Source of the DNA: Candidatus Enterousia sp.
Lineage (GTDB): Bacteria; Pseudomonadota; Alphaproteobacteria; Rs-D84
Assembly (NCBI GenBank): GCA_045587125.1
Contig: JAZNBN010000016.1
Span: forward strand, 96,728 to 160,727
Direction of reading: 5' to 3'
DNA: 64,000 nucleotides
Part shown: piece by piece, positions 1,145 to 58,141 of the stretch
Position numbering within the stretch: the stretch's first letter is position 1
How the letters are laid out: every line of letters begins with the position of its first letter
The notes under the pieces: generated by a model
What the model saw: the letters and a program-made list of their open reading frames with translations, nothing else
What the model was told of the DNA's origin: nothing
Database searches by the model: none
Position numbers and translations under genes: made by a program

Positions 1145-2074
1145 ATGAAAATTTCAATTATAGGTTTGGGGTCTGTTGGTTCTGCGGTTGCGACCGCTGT
1201 AAAAAACACAGGTTTGGCACATGAAATTGTTTTGTTTGACCGTGATGGTATTCGTGCACGTGCCGCCGCCGAAGATTTAGGGCATGCCGCTGCGTTTTCT
1301 TATGACGTAAAAATTACGGCTGTAAATAATTATCGTGCAATCCGCGGCAGTGAAATTGTCGTTATCGCCGCAGGTGCAAATCAAAAGCCCGGCGAAACCA
1401 GAACAGATTTATTGCATGCAAATGCAAATGTGATAAATGATATTGTTCCACGTGTTATGGCAAACGTAGATGCAAAAACAGTAAAATTGATAATCGTTAC
1501 AAATCCATTAGATGTTATGGTAATGTTGGCACAAAAATTATCTGGTCTGCCGGCAAGCCGTGTAATTGGCACAGGTACAATGTTGGATTCTGCACGTCTG
1601 CGTACAATATTGGCACGCCAGTTATCTGTTTCAACCCAATCTATTAACGCGTATGTTTTGGGTGAACATGGCGACAGCAGTATGATAAATTGGTCGTCTG
1701 CATGCATTGGCGGAATTGATTTAAATTCATTTTGTCGTCAAACAAAAATATCTTTGCCCCAGACGACACGTAATACAATATTGCATCGTGTTCATAACGC
1801 AGCCTATGAAATAATTCGCGGTCGTGGTGCAACATGGGATGGAATTGCCGGTGCGGTTGCGGATTTGGTACGTTGTATTGTAAATGATGAAAACCGCATA
1901 TTGACGGTCAGCACCGTTGATGGTGTTGGTGCGAAATCACTTGCCATGTCTTTACCACGTGTTGTTGGAAATCATGGTGTTGTTGCAACATTGATGCCAA
2001 AAATGAATGCAGTGGAATCCGCAGCATTACGGGCCAGTGGTAAAATAATCCGAAAAAATTACAATTCAATCTGA
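1145..2074 (+). CDS. ldh: L-lactate dehydrogenase (LDH/MDH family)
   Basis: N-terminal Rossmann IIGLGSVG, GANQKPGETRTDLL (Gln at the LDH/MDH discriminating position), catalytic GEHGDS. RBS GGGAGAG upstream. Confidence 0.8.
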   Translation: MKISIIGLGSVGSAVATAVKNTGLAHEIVLFDRDGIRARAAAEDLGHAAAFSYDVKITAVNNYRAIRGSEIVVIAAGANQKPGETRTDLLHANANVINDIVPRVMANVDAKTVKLIIVTNPLDVMVMLAQKLSGLPASRVIGTGTMLDSARLRTILARQLSVSTQSINAYVLGEHGDSSMINWSSACIGGIDLNSFCRQTKISLPQTTRNTILHRVHNAAYEIIRGRGATWDGIAGAVADLVRCIVNDENRILTVSTVDGVGAKSLAMSLPRVVGNHGVVATLMPKMNAVESAALRASGKIIRKNYNSI

Positions 2075-2078
2075 TTTA

Positions 2079-2103
2079 AGTCCGGTTTGCCGGACTTTTT
2101 TTT
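2079..2103 (+). terminator. Rho-independent terminator after ldh
   Basis: Stem AGTCCGG/CCGGACT, loop TTTG, T8. Confidence 0.8.
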
Positions 2104-2173
2104 GAATACTGTCATATACAATTTATGTTCTTTACGTGGTATATTTTTATTAAAACAACATAGGGGAAATAAT

Positions 2174-2473
2174 ATGCCTGATGAAGTACGATATTTAATC
2201 TCAGAACAGCAAGACAGATTTGAAGCCATTTTTAACGGTCAAAAGGTTGGTGAAATAACATTTGTTCGTGTTGGTATTGATAAATTGATAATTGAATACA
2301 CTGGGGTTGACCCAAAATTCAGACATAAAAACATAGGATTGTCTTTGGTACGCAGTGTTGCACACATGGCACGCAATCAAAAAAGACATGTTATAACATT
2401 GTGTCCATTTGCCCGTGCAATGTTTAACAGATATTCTGAATTTGATGATATTCGTTTAATGAACGCACATTAA
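2174..2473 (+). CDS. Small GNAT-like N-acetyltransferase (YjdJ type)
   Basis: Start moved to the ATG at 2174 behind GGGGAA. Pattern IEYTGVDPKFRHKNIGLSLV...ITLCPFARAMF resembles the short GNAT C-terminal family. Confidence 0.65.
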   Translation: MPDEVRYLISEQQDRFEAIFNGQKVGEITFVRVGIDKLIIEYTGVDPKFRHKNIGLSLVRSVAHMARNQKRHVITLCPFARAMFNRYSEFDDIRLMNAH

Positions 2474-2499
2474 AAAAACGGGAAATTCCCGTTTTTTTT
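2472..2499. terminator. Bidirectional terminator between GNAT gene and sodB
   Basis: A7-ACGGGA-loop-TCCCGT-T8, between convergent genes. Confidence 0.8.
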
Positions 2500-3085
2500 A
2501 ATTTCTAAGGTTTTCTGCTACGAAATTCCAATTTATTAAATTGTTTAAAAAGTTATCTATAAAATCTGCACGTCTGTTTTTATAATCCAAATAATAAGAA
2601 TGTTCCCAAACGTCTAATGTTAAAACAGGTTTCATATTATGTGCAATTGGTGTATCTGCATTTGCCATATTTACAATTTTTAATTTATCACCATCTTGGA
2701 CCAACCACGTATAACCACTGCCGAACAAAGAAGTGGCGGCGGATTTAAATTCTGTTTTAAAGTTTTCAATACTGCCGAAATTATCAATAATTTCCTGTGG
2801 AACTTTTGCTATGCATTTTGGGCACATTCCTTGAAAGAAAAAGTCATGATTATAAACCTGGGCTGCGTTATTAAATATTTTTTTATCCGAATCATTTTGT
2901 GCAGATTCTTTGATTATATCAATCAATGAAACCTGTTCGTATTTTGTGTTGTTAATAAGTTTATTCAGATTGTCTATATATGTTGCAACATGTTTGCCAT
3001 GGTGTGTTTCTAATGTGTCTTGGGATATATATGGACTAAGCGCGTATGTCGCATACGGTAATGGGAATTGGGCCAGTGTGAACAT
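2498..3085 (-). CDS. sodB: Iron superoxide dismutase
   Basis: LPYATYALSPYIS..THHGKHH-type N-terminus, FNNAAQVYNH (Fe-type Gln), DVWEHSYYLDYKNRR metal-binding motif. Confidence 0.92.
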   Translation of the reverse strand: MFTLAQFPLPYATYALSPYISQDTLETHHGKHVATYIDNLNKLINNTKYEQVSLIDIIKESAQNDSDKKIFNNAAQVYNHDFFFQGMCPKCIAKVPQEIIDNFGSIENFKTEFKSAATSLFGSGYTWLVQDGDKLKIVNMANADTPIAHNMKPVLTLDVWEHSYYLDYKNRRADFIDNFLNNLINWNFVAENLRN

Positions 3086-3218
3086 GTATATTTCTCCTTT
3101 GTTTTAGGTGTTTATTGTTGCATAAATACTGATTTTTACAACAGGAAAAAAATAATGAAAAAGCACTTGCGGTGTTGGTTATATATTTTCTATAATCCGA
3201 TTATCAAAAGGAGAAAAA

Positions 3219-3794
3219 ATGAAAAAATTATCGATTGTTTCTATGTTGTTTGGCTTGTTAATTGCGGGTAATGCATCTGCTGCGGACATAACGGTTTATT
3301 ATGCACCATCATGTCCACATTGTCATCATGCACGTGATTTTATATCAAATACATTGATTTATGAATATCCAGAATTAAAGGTAACAATGGTTGATGTTAC
3401 ACAGCCACAACATCGTAATATATTTAAATCTGCATTGGAAAAATGTGGTTTTACATCTGGTGGTGTACCTGTTTTGGTTGTTGGTGATAAATGTGAACAG
3501 GGTTATGCAGATTTTATGCAGGATACATTGCGTAAACATATCGAGGTAGATTTATCAGATGCGCAAAAGCAAACTGCTGCGGATAATAAAAAGGCAATGA
3601 CAACGGATGCTGATAAATTTAAATCAGATAACCCAGACCGTAAAAATGCCATTTCTGAATACAGTGCTGAAATATCAGACGCATCTGCGGGTCAAAAAAA
3701 AAATAATGGTGACAATGGCCTAATCTGGTTGGGTGCATTGTTGGTTTTATTGGTTGCGGGTCTGGGGTATGTTCTGGTTCGCAAGGATAAATAA
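3219..3794 (+). CDS. Exported thioredoxin-fold protein (CPHC) with C-terminal membrane anchor
   Basis: Signal peptide MKKLSIVSMLFGLLIAGNASA, redox motif YYAPSCPHCHH, glutaredoxin-like GGVPVLVV, C-terminal TM LIWLGALLVLLVAGLGYVLV. Confidence 0.6.
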   Translation: MKKLSIVSMLFGLLIAGNASAADITVYYAPSCPHCHHARDFISNTLIYEYPELKVTMVDVTQPQHRNIFKSALEKCGFTSGGVPVLVVGDKCEQGYADFMQDTLRKHIEVDLSDAQKQTAADNKKAMTTDADKFKSDNPDRKNAISEYSAEISDASAGQKKNNGDNGLIWLGALLVLLVAGLGYVLVRKDK

Positions 3795-3814
3795 AATAAC
3801 AGATTGGATAAACT

Positions 3815-4552
3815 ATGTTTGATTTAACAGTACTTGATTACATTTATGTTGGTATTGTTGTAGCGTCAACGTTATGGGCGACATTGCGTGGTGGTGTTTA
3901 TGAAACTATTGCGACAATGTCATGGGTTGTGGCTGCGATTGCTGCACGTATTGCATCACCATGGTTGGATAATTTACTACAATTGTGGTTTGATTTATCT
4001 GAATCAACTGTGGGGACATTGGTTGCGTCTTATTTTATTGTATTTTTTGCGGTTTTAATGTTGGTTGGTTTTGTCAATCAAAAACTGCGTGACAAAATTC
4101 AGGGCAGCATAATGAACATCACAGATAGAACATTGGGTGTAATATTTGGTATTATACGCGGTTTGGTTGTAATGGGTGTTTTTTATTGGGTTGCACTGTG
4201 GTATTATTCAGATGTTCCTGCGTTACCACAATGGTTGTCCCAGGCACGTACCCGTCCAATTATGCAAATTACGGCTGTAAAATTAGATGAATGGTTTTTC
4301 CCAGGACCGGAAAATAAATTGTTGGCACGTGATATGGCGGGAACACACGAAGCGTTGGAAATTTATAACAATCTTATTAATCCTGCAATCATGGGGGCAA
4401 AATCAGATAAAAAAGATAGCAATCCCGGGGTTGTAACACAAGATACAGAAACAGGTTATAAATCATCGGAACGTGCGGCCTTGGAAAATCAGTTGTTACA
4501 AATTGAAACTGTTGCACGTGCAATAGAAGAACACGAAGGAAAACCCGAGTAA
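3815..4552 (+). CDS. cvpA: CvpA-family membrane protein
   Basis: N-terminal DYIYVGIVVASTLWATLRGGVYE and four TM segments typical of colicin V production protein family. Confidence 0.7.
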   Translation: MFDLTVLDYIYVGIVVASTLWATLRGGVYETIATMSWVVAAIAARIASPWLDNLLQLWFDLSESTVGTLVASYFIVFFAVLMLVGFVNQKLRDKIQGSIMNITDRTLGVIFGIIRGLVVMGVFYWVALWYYSDVPALPQWLSQARTRPIMQITAVKLDEWFFPGPENKLLARDMAGTHEALEIYNNLINPAIMGAKSDKKDSNPGVVTQDTETGYKSSERAALENQLLQIETVARAIEEHEGKPE

Positions 4553-50623: not shown

Positions 50624-51561
50624 AAATATTAATTACGGGCGGTGCTGGTTTTATTGGTTCAAATTTAGCGGATAAATTATATGATTTAGGGAATGATATC
50701 ATAATTATTGATAATTTTAATGATTATTATTCGCCAGAACAGAAACGTAAAAATATAATGAACAAACCTTATATTGTTTATAAGGCAGATATTTGTGACA
50801 TTGATAAGCTGGAACAAATATTTTTAGATCATAATATTGATGTTGTAATTCATTTGGCAGCACGTGCAGGTGTTCGCCCAAGTTTAGAAAATCCAATTGC
50901 ATATGGTCAGACTAATTTGATTGGCACTATGAATATATTAGAAACAATGCGTAAATATGGATGCAAAAAGTTATTATTTGCATCATCTTCATCTGTGTAT
51001 GGAAATTGTGCCGCAGATAAATTTAGTGAAGATATACCACGTACAAATCCTATTTCGCCATATGGTGCAACAAAACTTATGTGTGAAGAAATTGCATGGA
51101 CTTATGCGTATTTATATAATATGAAAATAATAGGATATCGTTTCTTTACTGTTTATGGTCCACGTATGCGTCCGGATTTAGCGATTCATAAGTTTGCAAA
51201 AATGATACTGCATGGTGATGAGATTCCAAAATTTGGTGATGGTTCAAATGTTCGTGATTATACGTATATTGATGATATCACAGATGGTATTATTGCCGGT
51301 TTATCTTACGACAAGACAAATTTTGAAATTATTAATTTGGGTGGTGGAAACCCTGTGTCGCTAAATCAGATGATTCAAACGATATCTGATGAGCTGGGGC
51401 AGACACCAAGGATAAAACAAATGCCTATGCAGGCCGGCGATGTTGATAAAACTGTGTCAGATTGTACCAAGGCGGCACGTTTATTGGGGTATACACCAAA
51501 AATAGATTTTAAAACAGGTGTACATAATTTTATTAAATGGATGAAAAATGAAAATATTTAA
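50620..51561 (+). CDS. NAD-dependent sugar-nucleotide epimerase/dehydratase (UDP-glucuronate 4-epimerase-like)
   Basis: ITGGAGFIGSNL, SSSSVYG, PYGATK. Confidence 0.85.
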   Translation: MKILITGGAGFIGSNLADKLYDLGNDIIIIDNFNDYYSPEQKRKNIMNKPYIVYKADICDIDKLEQIFLDHNIDVVIHLAARAGVRPSLENPIAYGQTNLIGTMNILETMRKYGCKKLLFASSSSVYGNCAADKFSEDIPRTNPISPYGATKLMCEEIAWTYAYLYNMKIIGYRFFTVYGPRMRPDLAIHKFAKMILHGDEIPKFGDGSNVRDYTYIDDITDGIIAGLSYDKTNFEIINLGGGNPVSLNQMIQTISDELGQTPRIKQMPMQAGDVDKTVSDCTKAARLLGYTPKIDFKTGVHNFIKWMKNENI

Positions 51562-52525
51562 AAAAGTTCGTTATCAAAATGGGCGTCGTCACATTTATTT
51601 GTTTGGAATAAAGATTTTTAGTTATAAAAGGCATATGCCTAAGTATAAGCGTATTTATCTTAAACGTTACAGCGGACTGTCCCGGGATGAAATACAATAT
51701 TGTTTAAAACAACAGTTTAAGAAATATATAGGACACAGACTACATTTAAATAATCCACGCACATTTAATGAAAAATTACAATGGCTGAAATTGAACTGCC
51801 AGAATCCATTGATGACAAAATGTGCGGACAAGGTGGGTGTCCGCGACTATGTCAAAGAAAAAATAGGGGACAAATATTTAATTCCATGTTTGGGGGTTTG
51901 GGACAAGGCAGAAGACATAGATTTTGATGCTTTGCCAGATAGGTTTGTTCTAAAAGTTAATTGGGGCAGCGGTCAAAATATAATTGTAAAAAATAAAGCA
52001 GAATTAGACATTATAGAAACTTGTAGCCAATTAAACACATGGCTAAAAACAGAGCACAATCATTATTATAATTTTTTCGAATGGCCATATAAAGATATTA
52101 AACCCAAAATCATAGCAGAGAAATATTTAGATTTTGCGGCAGATTTATTAGATTATAAAATAATGTGTTATAATGGTATTCCTAAAAATCTATTTGTTTG
52201 TTCTGAACGGCAGAGTGGTTTAAAAGTGACGTTTTTTGATTTAAATTGGAAAAGGTTGCCCTTTACAAGAAAATATCCTGCTTCAAAGAAAAAAATAGAA
52301 CGACCAAAAGAACTTGCAGAAATGATAAATATTGCGAAAGTTTTATCAGAACCTTTTCCGTTTGTTCGGGTAGATTTCTTTTGTCATAATAATCATCTGT
52401 ATGTCGGCGAATTAACTTTTTTCCCGGGGGCGGGATTAGAACGTTTTACCCCGAATAAATACGATAAAATAATGGGGGCGTTGTTATTATTACCCCATAA
52501 GTCGTGTGGTCCAGCACAAATTTAA
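51548..52525 (+). CDS. TupA-like ATP-grasp protein of polysaccharide loci
   Basis: FNEKLQWLKL...CADKVGVRDYV...FVLKVNWGSGQNIIV pattern. Confidence 0.55.
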   Translation: MKIFKKVRYQNGRRHIYLFGIKIFSYKRHMPKYKRIYLKRYSGLSRDEIQYCLKQQFKKYIGHRLHLNNPRTFNEKLQWLKLNCQNPLMTKCADKVGVRDYVKEKIGDKYLIPCLGVWDKAEDIDFDALPDRFVLKVNWGSGQNIIVKNKAELDIIETCSQLNTWLKTEHNHYYNFFEWPYKDIKPKIIAEKYLDFAADLLDYKIMCYNGIPKNLFVCSERQSGLKVTFFDLNWKRLPFTRKYPASKKKIERPKELAEMINIAKVLSEPFPFVRVDFFCHNNHLYVGELTFFPGAGLERFTPNKYDKIMGALLLLPHKSCGPAQI

Positions 52526-52538
52526 TAAATTTACATCG

Positions 52539-52568
52539 AAAAATAATCCGGCTTTGCCGGATTATTTA
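52539..52568. terminator. Bidirectional terminator
   Basis: 10-bp stem AATAATCCGG/CCGGATTATT between convergent genes. Confidence 0.8.
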
Positions 52569-53042
52569 TGCAGACAGATATGATACAAACCAGCCTTTTA
52601 ATGTATTGGTAGACTCAACAACTGAAAAATTAGTAGTTGTTTGTGCGTGTGTGCTTACCGCTTTAAATGTTATGGTATTATTGTTTTGTGTTAATTTATA
52701 TATGATAAAAACAATATAATTTACATCATGTAATTTTACTGGCATTGTAACGGTTGATGTATTTAAGGGGATTTCGCCACCCATTTCAACCCAGCCACTT
52801 TTATATTTTCTGAACCAAGTATGGTTATTTTCGTCGCTTGGATTTTGCCATTCTATTACATAGTCTGCACTTGAAATGTTCGGGATTTCACTTTCTTTGG
52901 CCAACGCTACGCCACCTGGTGTTTCACCGTCATGTACACGTAATGTTTTGGCATCTGTGTCCATAGTTATTTCACCAACGGCCCCCGTAAAATTATCGTT
53001 TTCCAATGTCGTCCCACGACGAATTTGAATTTGTCTTGCCAT
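52566..53042 (-). CDS. Phage tail-fibre-like small protein (Mtd/HylP-type N-terminal motif)
   Basis: MARQIQIRRGTTLENDNFTGAVGEITMDTDAKTLRVHDGETPGG is the N-terminal motif common in phage fibre or hyaluronidase proteins. Confidence 0.55.
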   Translation of the reverse strand: MARQIQIRRGTTLENDNFTGAVGEITMDTDAKTLRVHDGETPGGVALAKESEIPNISSADYVIEWQNPSDENNHTWFRKYKSGWVEMGGEIPLNTSTVTMPVKLHDVNYIVFIIYKLTQNNNTITFKAVSTHAQTTTNFSVVESTNTLKGWFVSYLSA

Positions 53043-53078: not shown

Positions 53079-53105
53079 AAAAAAAACACCCGCACATTGG
53101 CAGGT
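53079..53105 (-). terminator. Probable nrdDG operon terminator
   Basis: Minus strand ACCTGC-loop-GCGGGT followed by T8. Confidence 0.6.
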
Positions 53106-53153: not shown

Positions 53154-53855
53154 TTATTCGCGCCATACAACAGACGTAAACAAAGCATTTATTTTATCAC
53201 GCAATGTTGCGTCATTAAAGAACTGTTCACGCAGAGCAGGGGTGGTTTTGTTTTCCTCGTCTTCAAAGTGTGGAATATACTTTTGAATAGCAATGTTTTG
53301 TACACCCTTGTGTGCCAGAATATCTGCGATTTGTAATAAATCATCTTTGGTGACAAAGCGTGGGTCGCATGTAATGCGTACTTCAAAATCTTTACCTGTG
53401 GCCAGCCATATGTCCAGACTGCGAATCATATTATCATACGCAATATGTTGACCTGTTAAATCTGGATATTTTTCGCACGTTGCCTTAAAATCCAATCCAA
53501 TCCAATCAACAAATTCAGATGCACGTTTTAATAATTCTGGATAAAAGCCATTTGTATGCAGTCCAATTTTAAATCCTAAATCCCGCACACGTTTCATGTA
53601 TTCTATGGCTGTGTCACCTTGCATCAATGCTTCGCCACCAGAAAAGACGATGGCTTCTAATTTGCCAACACGTCCCTTTAACCATTCAAAGGTTTTTTCT
53701 GGGTCATATTCACCGTCATGTGGACATAATAAATGGGGGTTGGAACAATATACACACCGTAATGGACAACCAACCAAGAACAAAACCGCAGCCAGTTTTC
53801 CAGGATAATCTATTGTGGTGAATGGTACCAATCCCCCGATTTGAACTTCACGCAT
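53154..53855 (-). CDS. nrdG: Anaerobic ribonucleotide reductase activating protein (radical SAM)
   Basis: GCPLRCVYCSNP cluster motif, FSGGEA. Starts 3 nt after the preceding ORF. Confidence 0.9.
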   Translation of the reverse strand: MREVQIGGLVPFTTIDYPGKLAAVLFLVGCPLRCVYCSNPHLLCPHDGEYDPEKTFEWLKGRVGKLEAIVFSGGEALMQGDTAIEYMKRVRDLGFKIGLHTNGFYPELLKRASEFVDWIGLDFKATCEKYPDLTGQHIAYDNMIRSLDIWLATGKDFEVRITCDPRFVTKDDLLQIADILAHKGVQNIAIQKYIPHFEDEENKTTPALREQFFNDATLRDKINALFTSVVWRE

Positions 53856-53858
53856 TTT

Positions 53859-54041
53859 TTATGCTGCTTTTTTCAACAAATCAGAATGTCTTTGACCAGT
53901 ACTCAGGCTGTTTGCTTCTGTAAATGTTTTACGTTCACAGAATTCAGAATATTTGCCAATATTAAAGTTTGAAACAGGTCTGATAAAACCCATACTGCGT
54001 GAAAAAATTTCGCATGGTGTTCTGTGTGCATTATTTGTCAT
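53859..54041 (-). CDS. Stand-alone glycyl-radical C-terminal module of NrdD (60 aa)
   Basis: SRSMGFIRPVSNFNIGKYSEFCERK matches the RVCGYLG...FN.GK..E...R glycyl-radical motif. Own RBS GGGGAG. In frame with nrdD, 17 codons after its TAA. Confidence 0.7.
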   Translation of the reverse strand: MTNNAHRTPCEIFSRSMGFIRPVSNFNIGKYSEFCERKTFTEANSLSTGQRHSDLLKKAA

Positions 54042-54092
54042 GTTATTCTCCCCTTTCTTTTTCTGATTTGTTATTTTGTTTATTTTTTTTGA

Positions 54093-56126
54093 TTACTCTT
54101 TCGTATCCTGATTTGCGGCATTTTCTGCATCGCATTTTGGACAGAATTCAAATTTACCCGCCAAATATCCATGTTTTGGACATATTGAAAACGTTGGTGT
54201 CAATGTCATATATGGCACTTTATAGTTTTCAAATATTGTGCGGACAATTTTTTGTGCGGCATCACCACTGGATACAGGTTCGCCCATGTACAGGTGCAAC
54301 ATTGTGCCGCCTGTGTATTTGCGTTGTAATTCTTCTTGGTGTTCCAATGCAACAAATGGATCGTCTGTAAAGTTCACAGGCAATTGTGTTGAATTTGTAT
54401 AGTATGGTGCTTCTTTTGTTCCCGCAGTTATAATGTCTGGGAAATTCTTGACGTCTGTTTTTGCAAAACGATAAGAACATCCTTCTGCTGGGGTTGCCTC
54501 CAGGTTATACAAATTGCCTGTTTGTTCTTGGAATGTTGCCAGATTTTCACGGATGAAATCCATAACATCCAAAACCAATTTTTTACCCATTGGTGTAGCG
54601 ATATTTTCACGGTCGCCTGTAAAGTTACGTACCATTTCATTTGCGCCATTTACACCAATTGTTGAAAAGTGATGATTCCAATTACCCAAATAACGTTTGG
54701 TAAATGGATACAGGCCATTTTCCATGTTTTTGGAAATAATTTGACGTTTGATTTCCAATGCATCACGACCCAAATCCAGTAATCTTTTCAGTTCACGGAA
54801 CAAACCTTCACGATTGCCACGGTGGATATAGCCCAATCTGGCCAAGTTAATTGTGATAACGCCGATTGAACCTGTTTTTTCAGCAGATCCAAACAATCCG
54901 CCACCACGTTTTAACAATTCACGTACGTCCAAACGTAATCTGCAACACATAGAACGAACGTCTGTTGGGTTCAGGTCAGAATTCAAGAAATTCTGGAAAT
55001 TTGGAATACCATATTTTGCAGCCAATTCAAACAAAGGCTTTACATTTGGATGTTCCCATGGGAAATCAGGTGTAATATTATATGTTGGAATTGGGAATGT
55101 AAATGGACGACCCAACGCATCACCTTCGGTCATAACCTCTAAAAATGCCTTGTTAATCATATCCATTTCATTTTGCAAATCGCCATATGTGAAATCAGCC
55201 TGTTTTTTACCAATAAATGGACGTTGTGGTTTCAAATCTTCTGGGCATGTCCAGTCAAATGTGAAATTGATAAATGGTGTTTGTGTTCCCCAACGACATG
55301 GTACAGCGCAATTAAATACCAATGTTTGCATTGCATTTTTTACATCTGCGTATGACAAATTATCAACCCTGACGTATGGCGCCAAATATGTATCAACAGA
55401 CGAAAAAGCCTGAGCCCCTGCAAATTCATTTTGTAACGTGCCCAAGAAGTTTACCATATGTGAAATCGCGGTCGCCATATGTTTGGCAGGTTCACATTGT
55501 AAATACCCAGGAACGCCATTAAATCCTTCGTATAACAATTCACGCAAAGACCAACCTGCACAATACCCGGTCAGCCAACCTAAATCATGAACGTGAATTG
55601 CCGCAGTTTTATGTGCCTCTGCCACTGCACGTGGATACAGATTCAGCCAATATTCTGCGGTAACACGTTCGCTGGTACGCAATATCAGACCACCGATGGA
55701 ATATCCGATATTAGCGTTCTCTTTGATACGCCAATTTGAACCACCGACGTAACCTTCTATAATTTCAACCGCATCAACCATAGATTCGCGAATTTCTGTA
55801 CGTTTTTGACGATATATAATATAAGCCTGGGCTGTTTTATATGCACGTGAATCCATCAGTGCACAAACAACTATATCTTGTACATCTTCCACAGTTGGTG
55901 TTTTTTCTGCGAATTTTTCATCCAGTCTTTTTAATACTTCCTGGGTAACCTTAACGATTTCGACATCAGACATTTCTGTTGTGACTGCAACCGCCTTTTT
56001 AACGGCCTCAAAAATCTTTTTAGAATCAAAAGGTACTGTTTCACCACTGCGTTTCTGCACAGCGACCAAACGTGTCTTTAATGTTGGTGTGATTTGAATT
56101 TGTATTTCATTTTGTGTTTCCGACAT
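54093..56126 (-). CDS. nrdD: Anaerobic ribonucleoside-triphosphate reductase, large part lacking the glycyl-radical tail
   Basis: N-terminal ATP-cone (VQKRSGETVPFDSKKI), class III RNR core, C-terminal Zn ribbon CPKH...CPKC, then TAA. Start at the ATG behind AGGGGT. Confidence 0.9.
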   Translation of the reverse strand: MSETQNEIQIQITPTLKTRLVAVQKRSGETVPFDSKKIFEAVKKAVAVTTEMSDVEIVKVTQEVLKRLDEKFAEKTPTVEDVQDIVVCALMDSRAYKTAQAYIIYRQKRTEIRESMVDAVEIIEGYVGGSNWRIKENANIGYSIGGLILRTSERVTAEYWLNLYPRAVAEAHKTAAIHVHDLGWLTGYCAGWSLRELLYEGFNGVPGYLQCEPAKHMATAISHMVNFLGTLQNEFAGAQAFSSVDTYLAPYVRVDNLSYADVKNAMQTLVFNCAVPCRWGTQTPFINFTFDWTCPEDLKPQRPFIGKKQADFTYGDLQNEMDMINKAFLEVMTEGDALGRPFTFPIPTYNITPDFPWEHPNVKPLFELAAKYGIPNFQNFLNSDLNPTDVRSMCCRLRLDVRELLKRGGGLFGSAEKTGSIGVITINLARLGYIHRGNREGLFRELKRLLDLGRDALEIKRQIISKNMENGLYPFTKRYLGNWNHHFSTIGVNGANEMVRNFTGDRENIATPMGKKLVLDVMDFIRENLATFQEQTGNLYNLEATPAEGCSYRFAKTDVKNFPDIITAGTKEAPYYTNSTQLPVNFTDDPFVALEHQEELQRKYTGGTMLHLYMGEPVSSGDAAQKIVRTIFENYKVPYMTLTPTFSICPKHGYLAGKFEFCPKCDAENAANQDTKE

Positions 56127-56152: not shown

Positions 56153-56201
56153 ACACAACATATAGTATTATTTTTGTTTGCTTAGTAACAATATATAGTT
56201 T
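56153..56201. promoter_or_regulatory. NrdR box pair 1 upstream of nrdD
   Basis: ACACAACATATAGTAT (56153-56168) and TAACAATATATAGTTT (56186-56201) fit the acaCwAtATaTwGtgt consensus. The boxes start 33 nt apart. Confidence 0.7.
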
Positions 56202-56383: not shown

Positions 56384-56431
56384 ACACAAAATATAGTTAT
56401 AAAAACGCGATGCTTTTACTATATGTTGTGT
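56384..56431. promoter_or_regulatory. NrdR box pair 2
   Basis: ACACAAAATATAGTTA (56384-56399) and TTACTATATGTTGTGT (56416-56431), 32 nt apart. Confidence 0.65.
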
Positions 56432-56551: not shown

Positions 56552-58141
56552 ATGATGATGAAAAATATATATGAAATGCTGCAAGATGTCTGTTCGCGGA
56601 ATAAAGACGGTATTTTCTTTGTCAGACAGAACGAAACATATGCAGATTTGTTAAAAAAAGTAAAGCAACGTGCCGTATTGTTGGCGAAACGCTTTGGAAT
56701 CAAAAAGGGGGATACTGTCGCAATTTTGTCTGGCAATACACCTGATTTCTTGCGTTCTTATTTTGCCATCACATCTCAGGGGGCCAAGGTTTTGATGCTG
56801 GATACAGGATTGCAACCATCTGAACATATCAATATGATGAAACGTACAGATTGCAAACTGACATTGGCGCAAAAGCACTATTTTATAGAAGGTGCCCCAT
56901 CAGAAATGTTTGATATTGAAAACATTGACGATACAGATGAAAAAGATTTTGTGGCTGCGGACGTTGTAAATACAGATATTGCCCAGTTGTCCTTTACATC
57001 TGGTTCAACCGGTAACCCCAAGGTTGTGGGTTTAACTCATAATAACCTGTTATCTTTGGCAGATGGGGCCCAGTTTTATAAAGATGTAATTTTACCGGGA
57101 TACACATTTTATGGATTTTTACCACTTTATCATATATATGGTGTGGTTATAAATATCATTGTGCCGATTGCACTTCAGGGAAAATTGTTATTACAACCGG
57201 TTTTAAAACCCCAAGAATTTATCAAAGACTTTAAACAATATAAACCAGAAGTTATTCCGGCTGTACCCAGAATATGGGAAGTTTTCTATAAGAAAATAGT
57301 TGATACGGCCCGTGATAAACACGTTTGGACATTAATGCGTGTTGTTGTATCACTGCGTAAGGTTTTACGTGCGATTGGATTGGGTGTAATTGTGGACAAG
57401 GTTACAAAACCAGTTCATGATGCATTTGGTGGTAATACCAAAGTTTTGGTATCAGCGGGTGCGACATTAAAACCATCAATTCGTAAATTCTATGAAAAAA
57501 TGGGCTTTGTTGTTGGGGATTGTTATGGTTTGACAGAAACCACAGGACCTGCGAACTTTAACTTTGCATTCCGTCGTGCAAATGGTTCTATGTATTACGC
57601 AGGACCATTGTTGGGTAACGAAATCAAAATTCATAACCCAGATAAAAATGGTGTTGGCGAAATATGGGTCCGTGGTAATATGGTCATGACAGGCTATATT
57701 GATAACGATGAAGCCAATGCCGAGGCTTTTGAAGACGGGTGGTTTAAAACAGGCGATATTGGTTGTCTGGACAAAGTAGGGCGTTTGACCGTCAAAGGTC
57801 GTCAAAAACAGGTTATTGTTTTAGACAGTGGTAAAAATGTTTATCCAGACGAACTGGAAGATCTGTATATGCAAAATGATGAAATATTGAATGCGGCTGT
57901 ATTTGAATATGTTATCAAAGACAAAGTCGTACCTTTTGCAGTATTTCAGGTAAAGCCAGGTACAACCACCGCACGTGTTGCGTTGTTGTTGAAAAAGTCT
58001 AATTTGGCAATTGCACAATACAAATGGGTAAAGCATTTCGCAATTACCGAAGAAGAATTGCCATCAACATCTGCCAAGAAAGTAAAACATTTCGCGGTTC
58101 GTGATATGTTGGACAAAGGTGCGTTTACACGTGGTGAATAA
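56552..58141 (+). CDS. AMP-dependent synthetase/ligase (long-chain acyl-CoA synthetase-like)
   Basis: AMP-binding motif LSFTSGSTGNPKVV, YGLTET, WFKTGDIG, GRQKQ. Confidence 0.85.
   Translation: MMMKNIYEMLQDVCSRNKDGIFFVRQNETYADLLKKVKQRAVLLAKRFGIKKGDTVAILSGNTPDFLRSYFAITSQGAKVLMLDTGLQPSEHINMMKRTDCKLTLAQKHYFIEGAPSEMFDIENIDDTDEKDFVAADVVNTDIAQLSFTSGSTGNPKVVGLTHNNLLSLADGAQFYKDVILPGYTFYGFLPLYHIYGVVINIIVPIALQGKLLLQPVLKPQEFIKDFKQYKPEVIPAVPRIWEVFYKKIVDTARDKHVWTLMRVVVSLRKVLRAIGLGVIVDKVTKPVHDAFGGNTKVLVSAGATLKPSIRKFYEKMGFVVGDCYGLTETTGPANFNFAFRRANGSMYYAGPLLGNEIKIHNPDKNGVGEIWVRGNMVMTGYIDNDEANAEAFEDGWFKTGDIGCLDKVGRLTVKGRQKQVIVLDSGKNVYPDELEDLYMQNDEILNAAVFEYVIKDKVVPFAVFQVKPGTTTARVALLLKKSNLAIAQYKWVKHFAITEEELPSTSAKKVKHFAVRDMLDKGAFTRGE

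What the first reader, a model, noticed from the sequence alone, without database searches (positions are those of the whole stretch)
53859..54140. nrdD is split: the glycyl-radical domain is a separate 60-aa ORF behind an in-frame TAA
The large class III RNR ORF ends ...ICPKHGYLAGKFEFCPKCDAENAANQDTKE-TAA (stop at 54093-54095), just after the C-terminal Zn ribbon. Exactly 17 in-frame codons later (SKKINKITNQKKKGENN, containing GGGGAG as an RBS) an ATG at 54041 opens a 60-aa ORF. That ORF carries the glycyl-radical motif: TPCEIFSRSMGFIRPVSNFNIGKYSEFCERK, compared with E. coli RRVCGYLG...PFNAGKQEEVKRRVKH.

In canonical NrdD the radical glycine sits about 15 residues after the second CxxC on the same polypeptide. 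Here the radical-bearing module appears to be a stand-alone peptide sandwiched between nrdD and nrdG. This would resemble a built-in GrcA/YfiD-type spare part.

Alternatives are stop-codon read-through, a recent inactivating mutation, or an assembly error. The intervening segment contains an A8 run.
Basis: partly seen in the sequence, partly recalled or inferred. Interest (0 to 1): 0.65.

Follow-up and report, generated by a model that had tools for sequence, protein, structure and literature searches.

The report
Two-piece anaerobic ribonucleotide reductase
This gut bacterium encodes its only enzyme for making DNA building blocks in two pieces, with the radical-carrying glycine on a separate 60-residue protein; the arrangement is conserved in many bacteria, phages carry the small piece alone, and I found no paper describing it.

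Summary
On the minus strand, nrdD (56126-54096, 677 aa) stops at TAA 54095-54093, just after its Zn ribbon. A 51-nt spacer follows, containing GGGGAG. A 60-aa ORF (54041-53862) then carries the glycyl-radical motif, and nrdG starts 3 nt after its stop.

The NrdD profile PRK08270 is divided exactly: positions 4-651 lie on the large chain and 650-682 on the small one.

This is not an error, a pseudogene or read-through:
- 104 related loci keep the split, with spacers in all three frames (37/40/26).
- Every small ORF has its own Shine-Dalgarno sequence and ATG.
- dN/dS of the small ORF is about 0.07.
- The genome, and 40 of 41 genomes of the genus (Candidatus Enterousia), have no class I/II reductase.

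The same split occurs in Cupriavidus necator H16, Ralstonia solanacearum and Paracoccus denitrificans. A profile search found 4272 protein clusters, and the best 150 are all short.

Complete phage genomes carry only the small gene, without the barrel or the activase. One-piece relatives nest inside the split clade.

The best reading is a two-subunit glycyl-radical enzyme whose radical subunit acts in trans. A June 2026 review still says spare-part proteins are known only for formate lyases.

The parts
56153..56201 (-). Two NrdR-box-like palindromes upstream of nrdD: AAACTATATATTGTTA at 56201-56186 and ATACTATATGTTGTGT at 56168-56153. Their centres are 33 bp apart.
   Evidence: Read from the sequence. 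They match 13/16 and 14/16 positions of the NrdR-box consensus, which I recalled from memory. An nrdR gene is present in the genome. No statistical test was run.
54093..56126 (-). nrdD large chain, 677 aa plus TAA. It holds the ATP-cone, the ten-stranded barrel with the finger-loop MCCRL, and a C-terminal CxxH...CxxC metal ribbon. It has no glycyl-radical loop.
   Evidence: PF03477 plus PF13597 positions 1-531; PRK08270 positions 4-651 at 1022 bits. The AF2 model matches solved NrdD structures.
54132..54182 (-). Metal-ribbon ligand codons C649, H652, C662 and C665 of the large chain.
   Evidence: All four are invariant in the 96-sequence alignment A2.
54042..54092 (-). 51-nt A-rich spacer, in frame in this genome, with Shine-Dalgarno GGGGAG at 54053-54048.
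   Evidence: In 104 related loci the spacer is 20-92 nt, falls in frames 0/+1/+2 as 37/40/26, and has an SD-like motif in 104/104.
53859..54041 (-). 60-aa glycyl-radical subunit. The predicted radical glycine is G18 (codon 53990-53988) in the motif SRSMGFIRP. C10 is invariant. There is an 18-residue helical C-terminal tail.
   Evidence: PRK08270 positions 650-682 and PF13597 positions 532-562. Invariant residues are R7, C10, R15, M17, G18, R21, P22, N27, G29, K30, E33 and R37. dN/dS is 0.07-0.08. The genome holds a single copy.
53154..53855 (-). nrdG activase (radical SAM, 233 aa). Its ATG lies 3 nt after the small ORF's stop and has no evident SD of its own.
   Evidence: TIGR02495 NrdG2 at 179 bits against a cut-off of 131. 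The distance from the small-ORF stop to the nrdG ATG is 1-7 nt in 89 of 99 loci.
53088..53105 (-). Terminator-like hairpin followed by a T-run, after nrdG. This is the likely operon end.
   Evidence: Consensus scan only.

Best explanation
The locus is a three-gene operon, nrdD(large)-nrdD(small)-nrdG, encoding a naturally two-piece class III (anaerobic) ribonucleotide reductase.

The 677-aa chain supplies the ATP-cone, the catalytic barrel with its finger-loop cysteines, and the C-terminal CxxH/CxxC metal ribbon. The 60-aa protein is translated on its own, from its own Shine-Dalgarno sequence and ATG. It supplies the glycine loop (G18) that NrdG converts to the glycyl radical, and this loop must insert into the barrel next to the finger-loop cysteine to start catalysis.

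Shown here:
- The exact complementary split of the NrdD profile.
- Independent translation signals.
- Purifying selection on the small ORF.
- Lineage-wide conservation of the split.
- Sole-RNR status of the enzyme.
- Occurrence of the same split in cultured bacteria.
- Lone small genes in phages.

Inferred:
- The small protein is the NrdG substrate and docks in trans as the fused domain does in one-piece NrdD.
- nrdG translation is coupled to that of the small ORF.
- The subunit can be exchanged. Phages that supply only this piece must rely on the host's large chain and activase.
For: Division of the profile:
- PRK08270 covers 4-651 on the large chain and 650-682 on the small ORF. The artificial read-through fusion covers the Pfam NRDD model end to end, 1-562.

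Conservation of the split:
- The split is present in every locus examined from the genus (L001-L020) and in related families of the order (L021-L032), always with nrdG next.
- In 104 loci the spacer is 20-92 nt and the frame offset 0/1/2 is 37/40/26. An SD-like motif is present in 104/104.
- dN/dS is 0.07-0.08 at dS 1.37.
- The small ORF exists as 394 90%-identity clusters of stand-alone proteins. The profile search gives 4272 50%-identity clusters at E<=1e-3 and 939 at E<=1e-10, and all of the best 150 are 47-152 aa.

The enzyme must work:
- The genome (96.75% complete) has no PF02867, and neither do 40 of 41 genomes of the genus, so this is the only RNR.
- The same split is present in C. necator H16 pHG1 (676 aa plus 66 aa, 142-nt spacer), R. 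solanacearum (683 plus 58 aa, ATGA overlap), Cereibacter azotoformans, P. denitrificans and Thiothrix.
- nrdDG of H16 is reported as needed for full denitrification (PMC2864759, citing Siedow 1999).

Phages:
- 417 IMG/VR stretches encode the small protein.
- 74 of the best 80 loci have no nrdD or nrdG within 4 kb.
- In 20 whole viral records (9 at least 90% complete, 8 with terminal repeats) the only NRDD match, where there is one (19 of 20), is the small ORF.
- 19 of those 20 records have no radical-SAM gene.

Structure:
- The AF2 model of the read-through fusion has pLDDT 82 and pTM 0.80 and matches NrdD structures.
- The small protein modelled alone is not compact (pTM 0.33), and its glycine loop has pLDDT 54.
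Against: - There is no transcript, peptide or activity evidence for this organism, which is an uncultured MAG.
- The glycyl-radical part of the AF2 model has only moderate confidence (pLDDT 46-86). I could not read the coordinates, so docking of G18 next to the finger-loop cysteine is inferred from homology and not shown.
- In this particular genome the spacer is in frame with a single TAA, so a minor read-through product cannot be excluded.
- Reduced ~1-Mb genomes can salvage deoxynucleosides, so being the sole RNR is strong but not absolute proof of activity.
Confidence: 0.85

Rival explanations
1. Stop-codon read-through, or another recoding event, joins the two ORFs, so the functional enzyme is a normal single-chain NrdD.
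For: In this window the spacer is exactly 17 in-frame codons behind a single TAA, with no second stop. One-piece relatives of the same subfamily exist with a 10-20-aa linker.
Against: - In 104 related loci the small ORF lies in frame 0, +1 or +2 almost equally (37/40/26), often with several stops in between.
- Each small ORF has its own SD and ATG.
- In R. solanacearum the two genes overlap as ATGA, and in C. necator they are 142 nt apart.
- No single recoding mechanism fits all of these.
- Phages carry the small gene with nothing to fuse it to.
Confidence: 0.04
2. A recent nonsense mutation, or an assembly or sequencing error in the A-rich stretch, has broken an ordinary nrdD, leaving a pseudogene or an artefact.
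For: The source is a MAG, an A8 run lies beside the stop, and reads could not be inspected.
Against: - The same architecture occurs in more than 100 independent assemblies of the genus and order, and in finished genomes of cultured bacteria.
- The small ORF is under strong purifying selection.
- It is the only RNR in the genome.
Confidence: 0.01
3. The small protein is an accessory, for example a regulator, chaperone or optional spare part, and does not carry the catalytic radical. The large chain would obtain its radical in some other way.
For: No biochemical data exist. The AF2 confidence for the glycine loop is modest.
Against: - The large chain ends at profile position 651 and has no RxxG[YF] loop anywhere.
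- The small ORF keeps exactly the residues that are invariant in the fused glycyl-radical segment of one-piece relatives: R, G, R-P, N, G-K, E, R.
- It always lies directly in front of the activase gene.
Confidence: 0.06

Closest known systems
Canonical one-piece class III RNR NrdD with activase NrdG (phage T4 1H79, T. maritima 4COI/4U3E, P. copri 8P23, S. thermophilus 9D3X, E. coli)
   Same: It has the same barrel, ATP-cone, C-terminal metal ribbon and glycine-loop motif, and an adjacent radical-SAM activase. The AF2 model matches these structures (TMq 0.54-0.62).
   Different: Here the polypeptide ends after the metal ribbon, and the glycine loop is a separate gene product. The second metal ligand is His (CxxH) where T4 and E. 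coli have Cys. Sequence identity to the solved structures is only about 20%.
One-piece members of the same PRK08270 subfamily (Maricaulis/Hyphobacterium, many Actinobacteria; P0269-P0388)
   Same: They are 55-61% identical to the window's enzyme. They share the CxxH...CxxC ribbon, the invariant Cys eight residues before the glycine, and the same C-E-V-W-T-R-V-M-G-Y-H-R-P core.
   Different: In them a 10-20-residue linker joins the two parts into one chain. In my tree they nest inside split lineages at three or more places, which suggests secondary re-fusion.
GrcA/YfiD, the autonomous glycyl-radical 'spare part' of pyruvate formate-lyase
   Same: Both are small stand-alone proteins carrying a radical glycine that must work with a large barrel made as a different polypeptide. 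A phage-encoded version also exists (T4; from my own knowledge).
   Different: GrcA belongs to PF01228 and backs up a PFL that has its own glycine loop. The protein here belongs to the NRDD C-terminus (PF13597 532-562) and is the only glycine loop available. A June 2026 review states that spare-part proteins are known only for formate lyases (PMC13450708).
Split class II RNR NrdJa/NrdJb (Pseudomonas aeruginosa; Crona et al. 2015, cited in PMC9669993)
   Same: It is an RNR catalytic subunit naturally encoded as two adjacent genes, with the C-terminal zinc-finger module on the second chain.
   Different: It is a different class (B12-dependent) with a different split point. The second chain carries redox cysteines, not the radical.
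nrdD-nrdG of Cupriavidus necator (Alcaligenes eutrophus) H16 megaplasmid pHG1 (Siedow et al. 1999)
   Same: It has the same split architecture: 676-aa and 66-aa genes followed by nrdG. The locus is reported as required for anaerobic, denitrifying growth (PMC2864759).
   Different: The literature treats it as a two-gene nrdDG system. I could not read the 1999 paper (not held), so I do not know whether the small ORF was noticed.

Membership tests
Class III RNR catalytic subunit NrdD (PF13597 / NCBIfam PRK08270) | Barrel domain that matches the family profile above its cut-off | tested here: met
   PRK08270 scores 1022 bits against a cut-off of 548. PF13597 has E = 3.7e-169.
Class III RNR catalytic subunit NrdD (PF13597 / NCBIfam PRK08270) | Finger-loop cysteine(s) for the thiyl radical | tested here: met
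   M393-C394-C395-R396 is invariant in 96 sequences.
Class III RNR catalytic subunit NrdD (PF13597 / NCBIfam PRK08270) | C-terminal four-ligand metal ribbon | tested here: met
   C649, H652, C662 and C665 are invariant. His replaces the second Cys.
Class III RNR catalytic subunit NrdD (PF13597 / NCBIfam PRK08270) | Glycyl-radical loop RxxG[YF] on the same polypeptide as the barrel | tested here: not met
   The large chain ends at profile position 651. The loop (positions 650-682) is on a separate 60-aa ORF.
Class III RNR catalytic subunit NrdD (PF13597 / NCBIfam PRK08270) | Dedicated radical-SAM activase NrdG encoded alongside | tested here: met
   TIGR02495 scores 179 bits against a cut-off of 131. 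The gene starts 3 nt after the small ORF.
Class III RNR catalytic subunit NrdD (PF13597 / NCBIfam PRK08270) | Glycyl radical formed, and NTP reduction under anoxia | not testable with these tools
   This needs EPR and an activity assay. Indirect support: it is the sole RNR in the genome and genus.
GrcA/YfiD autonomous glycyl-radical cofactor | Homology to the PFL-type Gly_radical domain (PF01228) | tested here: not met
   A Pfam scan of the small ORF at E<=0.01 returns only PF13597.
GrcA/YfiD autonomous glycyl-radical cofactor | Backs up a parent enzyme that has its own glycine loop | tested here: not met
   The large chain lacks the loop, and the genome holds a single copy of the small ORF.
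GrcA/YfiD autonomous glycyl-radical cofactor | Small stand-alone protein that carries the radical glycine motif | tested here: met
   It is 60 aa with its own SD and ATG and is conserved as a stand-alone protein.
Split RNR (NrdJa/NrdJb type) | Class II, B12-dependent barrel (PF02867) split into two genes | tested here: not met
   The genome has no PF02867 match. The barrel here is class III.

The most novel reading that the evidence does not exclude
The ~60-residue protein is a dissociable, replaceable radical cartridge for a large clade of class III RNRs. NrdG would activate it, possibly while it is off the enzyme. It would dock onto the large chain beside the metal ribbon, and after oxygen cleavage only the 7-kDa piece would need to be remade. 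Phages exploit this by encoding just the cartridge, with no barrel and no activase, to recharge or boost the host reductase during infection. This would be the first trans-acting glycyl-radical subunit outside pyruvate formate-lyase. It would also give a natural system for studying how activases reach the buried glycine loop.
Probability: 0.35. Interest if true: 0.85.

Novelty: new variant of a known kind. Interest (0 to 1): 0.7.

Why it matters
Glycyl-radical enzymes are described as single chains whose C-terminal glycine loop must swing out of the barrel to be activated and then back in to work. How that happens is an open mechanistic question.

A natural enzyme whose loop is a separate 7-kDa protein would let that step be studied with two purifiable components. 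It would also change how class III RNRs are annotated. The large chains are currently called complete NrdD, while the small genes are called 'hypothetical' or are unannotated.

It further identifies a phage auxiliary gene of previously unknown function (phrog_4132).

For Candidatus Enterousia and other gut and rumen Alphaproteobacteria with ~1-Mb genomes, this is the only route to deoxynucleotides.

Tried and rejected
- Siedow et al. 1999 on the C. necator H16 nrdDG locus is not held, by DOI or by PMC id.
- Six literature searches and several full-text look-ups found no description of a split class III RNR. They turned up only the split class II NrdJa/b and GrcA.
- tblastn of the window's small ORF against the INPHARED phage set gave only two weak hits. 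The one I inspected, MT835493, is an 802-aa one-piece NrdD fused to a glutaredoxin-like tail. The other, in ANMV-1, lies under an annotated NrdD gene. The lone phage copies appeared only with a family profile against IMG/VR.
- I considered whether the invariant C10 of the small protein is the fourth metal ligand, tethering the two chains. This is weakened because one-piece NrdDs with CxxH...CxxC and no Cys at that position exist (phage MT835493 and G075), so His is probably the ligand. The role of C10 remains unexplained.
- My motif regex missed 8 of 112 loci. Two that I checked by hand (L029, L073) hold intact small ORFs with motif variants. L030 ends in the same truncated large chain, with no small ORF in the fetched piece.
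Full report
**Observation**

On the minus strand the window holds three genes in a row:
- nrdD, from the ATG at 56126 to the TAA at 54095-54093.
- A 60-codon ORF, from the ATG at 54041 to the TAA at 53861-53859.
- nrdG, from 53855 to 53154.

The large ORF ends ...ICPKHGYLAGKFEFCPKCDAENAANQDTKE. The 51-nt spacer is in frame, contains an A8 run and has GGGGAG 6 nt before the ATG. The small ORF reads MTNNAHRTPCEIFSRSMGFIRPVSNFNIGKYSEFCERKTFTEANSLSTGQRHSDLLKKAA.

The family profiles are divided exactly between the two ORFs.
- NCBIfam PRK08270 (684 positions) matches the large chain at 4-651 (1022 bits, cut-off 548) and the small ORF at 650-682.
- Pfam NRDD matches at 1-531 and 532-562.
- The artificial read-through fusion covers the Pfam model end to end, 1-562.

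nrdG is a TIGR02495 activase (179 bits, cut-off 131).

**Not an artefact, pseudogene or read-through**

The window lies in a 1.10-Mb, 96.75%-complete genome. Record titles of near-identical loci name the organism Candidatus Enterousia, an uncultured gut and rumen alphaproteobacterium.

Every same-genus locus I fetched (L001-L020), and loci from other families of the order (L021-L032), show the same layout. The large chain stops a few residues after CPxCD, a short spacer follows, then a ~60-aa ORF with the glycine motif, then nrdG.

Across 104 loci that my script could parse:
- The spacer is 20-92 nt.
- Its length modulo 3 is 0, 1 or 2 in 37, 40 and 26 cases.
- The nrdD stop is TAA in 98 cases and TAG in 5.
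- All 104 small ORFs have an SD-like motif before an ATG.

No read-through or frameshift mechanism can serve all three frames. The small ORF's 42-codon core has dN/dS of 0.07-0.08 at dS of about 1.4. Two of the eight loci my regex missed were checked by hand and hold intact small ORFs with motif variants.

With more than 100 independent assemblies agreeing, that check is no longer decisive.

**The enzyme must work**

The genome has no PF02867 (class I/II RNR) match. Neither do 40 of 41 genomes of the genus. The single 21-bit hit is marginal. The controls matched in 12 of 14 reference genomes. The genome has one copy of the small ORF and an nrdR gene. The split NrdD is therefore the only de novo route to dNTPs. 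Deoxynucleoside salvage cannot be excluded in such a reduced genome, but it would not explain the purifying selection.

**Distribution**

The small protein exists as 394 90%-identity clusters of stand-alone proteins of similar length. Sources name most of them 'hypothetical protein' and some 'anaerobic ribonucleoside-triphosphate reductase'. A profile of ten small ORFs, searched against 1.84 billion representative proteins, found 4272 clusters at E<=1e-3 and 939 at E<=1e-10. All of the best 150 are 47-152 aa long, so they are stand-alone proteins and not the C-termini of long NrdDs.

tblastn against plasmid and megaplasmid records found the same arrangement in cultured bacteria:
- Ralstonia solanacearum: a 683-aa chain plus a 58-aa 'hypothetical protein' overlapping it as ATGA.
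- Cupriavidus necator H16 pHG1: a 676-aa chain, a 142-nt spacer, and a 66-aa ORF that RefSeq calls nrdD.
- Cereibacter azotoformans, Paracoccus denitrificans and Thiothrix fructosivorans.

In C. metallidurans CH34 the genome paper lists nrdD and nrdG as Rmet_5137 and Rmet_5139, leaving 5138 between them. It reports the H16 nrdDG genes as needed for full denitrification (PMC2864759). That is in-vivo evidence that a split enzyme functions.

In an even sample of 151 Pseudomonadota genomes, seven have a PRK08270-class NrdD. Five of these are split and two are one-piece.

**One-piece relatives and history**

The one-piece alphaproteobacterial relative (Maricaulaceae) and 119 of its 120 best homologues, many from Actinobacteria, carry the same core, C-E-V-W-T-R-V-M-G-Y-H-R-P. 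A 10-20-residue linker joins it to the ribbon. They are 55-61% identical to the window's enzyme.

I built a FastTree phylogeny from 537 barrel columns, rooted on two canonical one-piece NrdDs.
- The split lineages (Enterousia, its order, other Proteobacteria, one viral contig) fall at the base.
- The one-piece forms nest among them in three places.
- Fitch parsimony reconstructs the subfamily ancestor as split.

Sampling is small and biased and some nodes are weak. An ancient fission followed by several re-fusions is therefore a tentative reading.

**Phages**

A profile scan of IMG/VR found 417 viral stretches encoding the small protein. Of the best 80 loci, 74 have the small ORF with no NrdD barrel or NrdG within 4 kb, and 5 have a split nrdD next to it.

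I then searched 20 of the whole viral records. Nine are at least 90% complete and eight have direct terminal repeats.
- In 19 of them the only NRDD match is the small ORF, at profile positions ~530-562. The twentieth has no match at all.
- 19 of the 20 have no radical-SAM gene.

The best viral match (L125, from a 40-kb record with terminal repeats) is 74% identical over residues 6-43 and has the Enterousia-type FSRSMGF signature. A tail-protein gene lies nearby. These phage proteins fall in phrog_4132, 'unknown function'. A phage that encodes only this piece must use the host's large chain and activase. That argues the subunit acts in trans and can be exchanged.

**Structure**

AF2 on the read-through fusion, using a 96-sequence alignment rich in one-piece relatives, gave pLDDT 82 and pTM 0.80. 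The glycine-loop part scored 46-86. Foldseek places the model with the solved NrdD structures 9D3X, 8P23, 4COJ and 1H79, at TMq 0.54-0.62. The small protein modelled alone gave pLDDT 75 and pTM 0.33, with a flexible glycine loop (pLDDT 54) and two helices. This is consistent with a peptide that folds on its partner.

**Mechanism proposed**

1. The operon, possibly under NrdR control through two NrdR-like boxes at 56201-56153, is transcribed as one unit. The only terminator-like site follows nrdG.
2. The large chain and the small protein are translated separately.
3. nrdG begins 1-7 nt after the small ORF's stop in 89 of 99 loci, without an evident SD. It may therefore be translationally coupled to the small ORF, its presumed substrate.
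4. NrdG abstracts the hydrogen from G18.
5. The loop sits in the barrel next to C394/C395 and starts catalysis.

Steps 2 and 3 rest on sequence signals. Steps 4 and 5 rest on homology.

**Comparison with what is known**

The enzyme is a class III RNR in every feature except the one that normally defines the catalytic subunit: a glycine loop on the same chain.
- It works like GrcA/YfiD in being a stand-alone radical carrier. It is not a member of that family, because it is not PF01228 and there is no intact parent loop.
- It resembles NrdJa/NrdJb only in being a split RNR.

I found no paper describing it. [quoted passage not shown]

Earlier notes of this scan report the same arrangement in other genomes. 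I re-derived their main claims independently: conservation, occurrence in laboratory bacteria, and lone phage copies.

**Verdict**

This locus is one well-conserved member of a widespread, database-visible but apparently undescribed two-subunit form of class III RNR.

Noticed in passing
window 56153-56201 (-), and 56385-56430 (-): Two NrdR-box-like palindromes sit just upstream of nrdD, with centres 33 bp apart. A second, weaker pair of similar AT-rich boxes (cacaacatatag..., aactatattttgtgtt) lies further upstream, towards the divergent AMP-ligase gene. The genome encodes NrdR (G000:C1:4815-5255).
   Followed up: partly
window 53855-53861 and loci L001-L112: nrdG's ATG lies 1-7 nt after the small ORF's stop in 89 of 99 loci, with no obvious Shine-Dalgarno sequence. 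This suggests the activase is translationally coupled to its presumed substrate peptide.
   Followed up: partly
window 52566-53042 (-): A 158-aa ORF directly downstream of the nrd operon has a phage-type 'major tropism determinant' N-terminal domain (PF18454, E = 2e-13). This is an isolated tail-fibre-like fragment in a ~1-Mb bacterial genome.
   Followed up: no
window 51548-52525 (+) and 56552-58141 (+): The flanking genes are a TupA-like ATP-grasp protein (PF14305) and an AMP-binding acyl-CoA-ligase-like enzyme (PF00501). They appear unrelated to the nrd operon.
   Followed up: no
small ORF residue C10 (window 54014-54012) and its relatives: A cysteine eight residues before the radical glycine is invariant in the split and the fused members of this subfamily. 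It is absent from canonical one-piece NrdDs that also have CxxH...CxxC. Its role (second metal site, disulfide or tether) is unexplained.
   Followed up: partly
C-termini of the small proteins (window 53862-53870; P0121-P0268): Many small subunits, and the fused relatives, end in -AA, -IAA, -VA or -AAE (here ...LLKKAA). This resembles C-terminal degradation tags, or it may be a docking element. It was not tested.
   Followed up: no
G034 (same order): L023, L030, and G034:C21:307-426: One related genome carries two nrdD large-chain genes that both end right after the Zn ribbon. One of them sits in a 1108-aa open frame. The genome also has an extra small-ORF-like match on a third contig.
   Followed up: no
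L124 (phage MT835493, locus 2030-4438): A gut phage encodes an 802-aa one-piece NrdD with a C-terminal glutaredoxin/thioredoxin-like extension, followed by a thioredoxin-reductase-like gene.
   Followed up: no
L073:3501-3683: One Enterousia genome has Ser in place of the otherwise invariant Pro in the G-F-I-R-P motif of the small protein.
   Followed up: no
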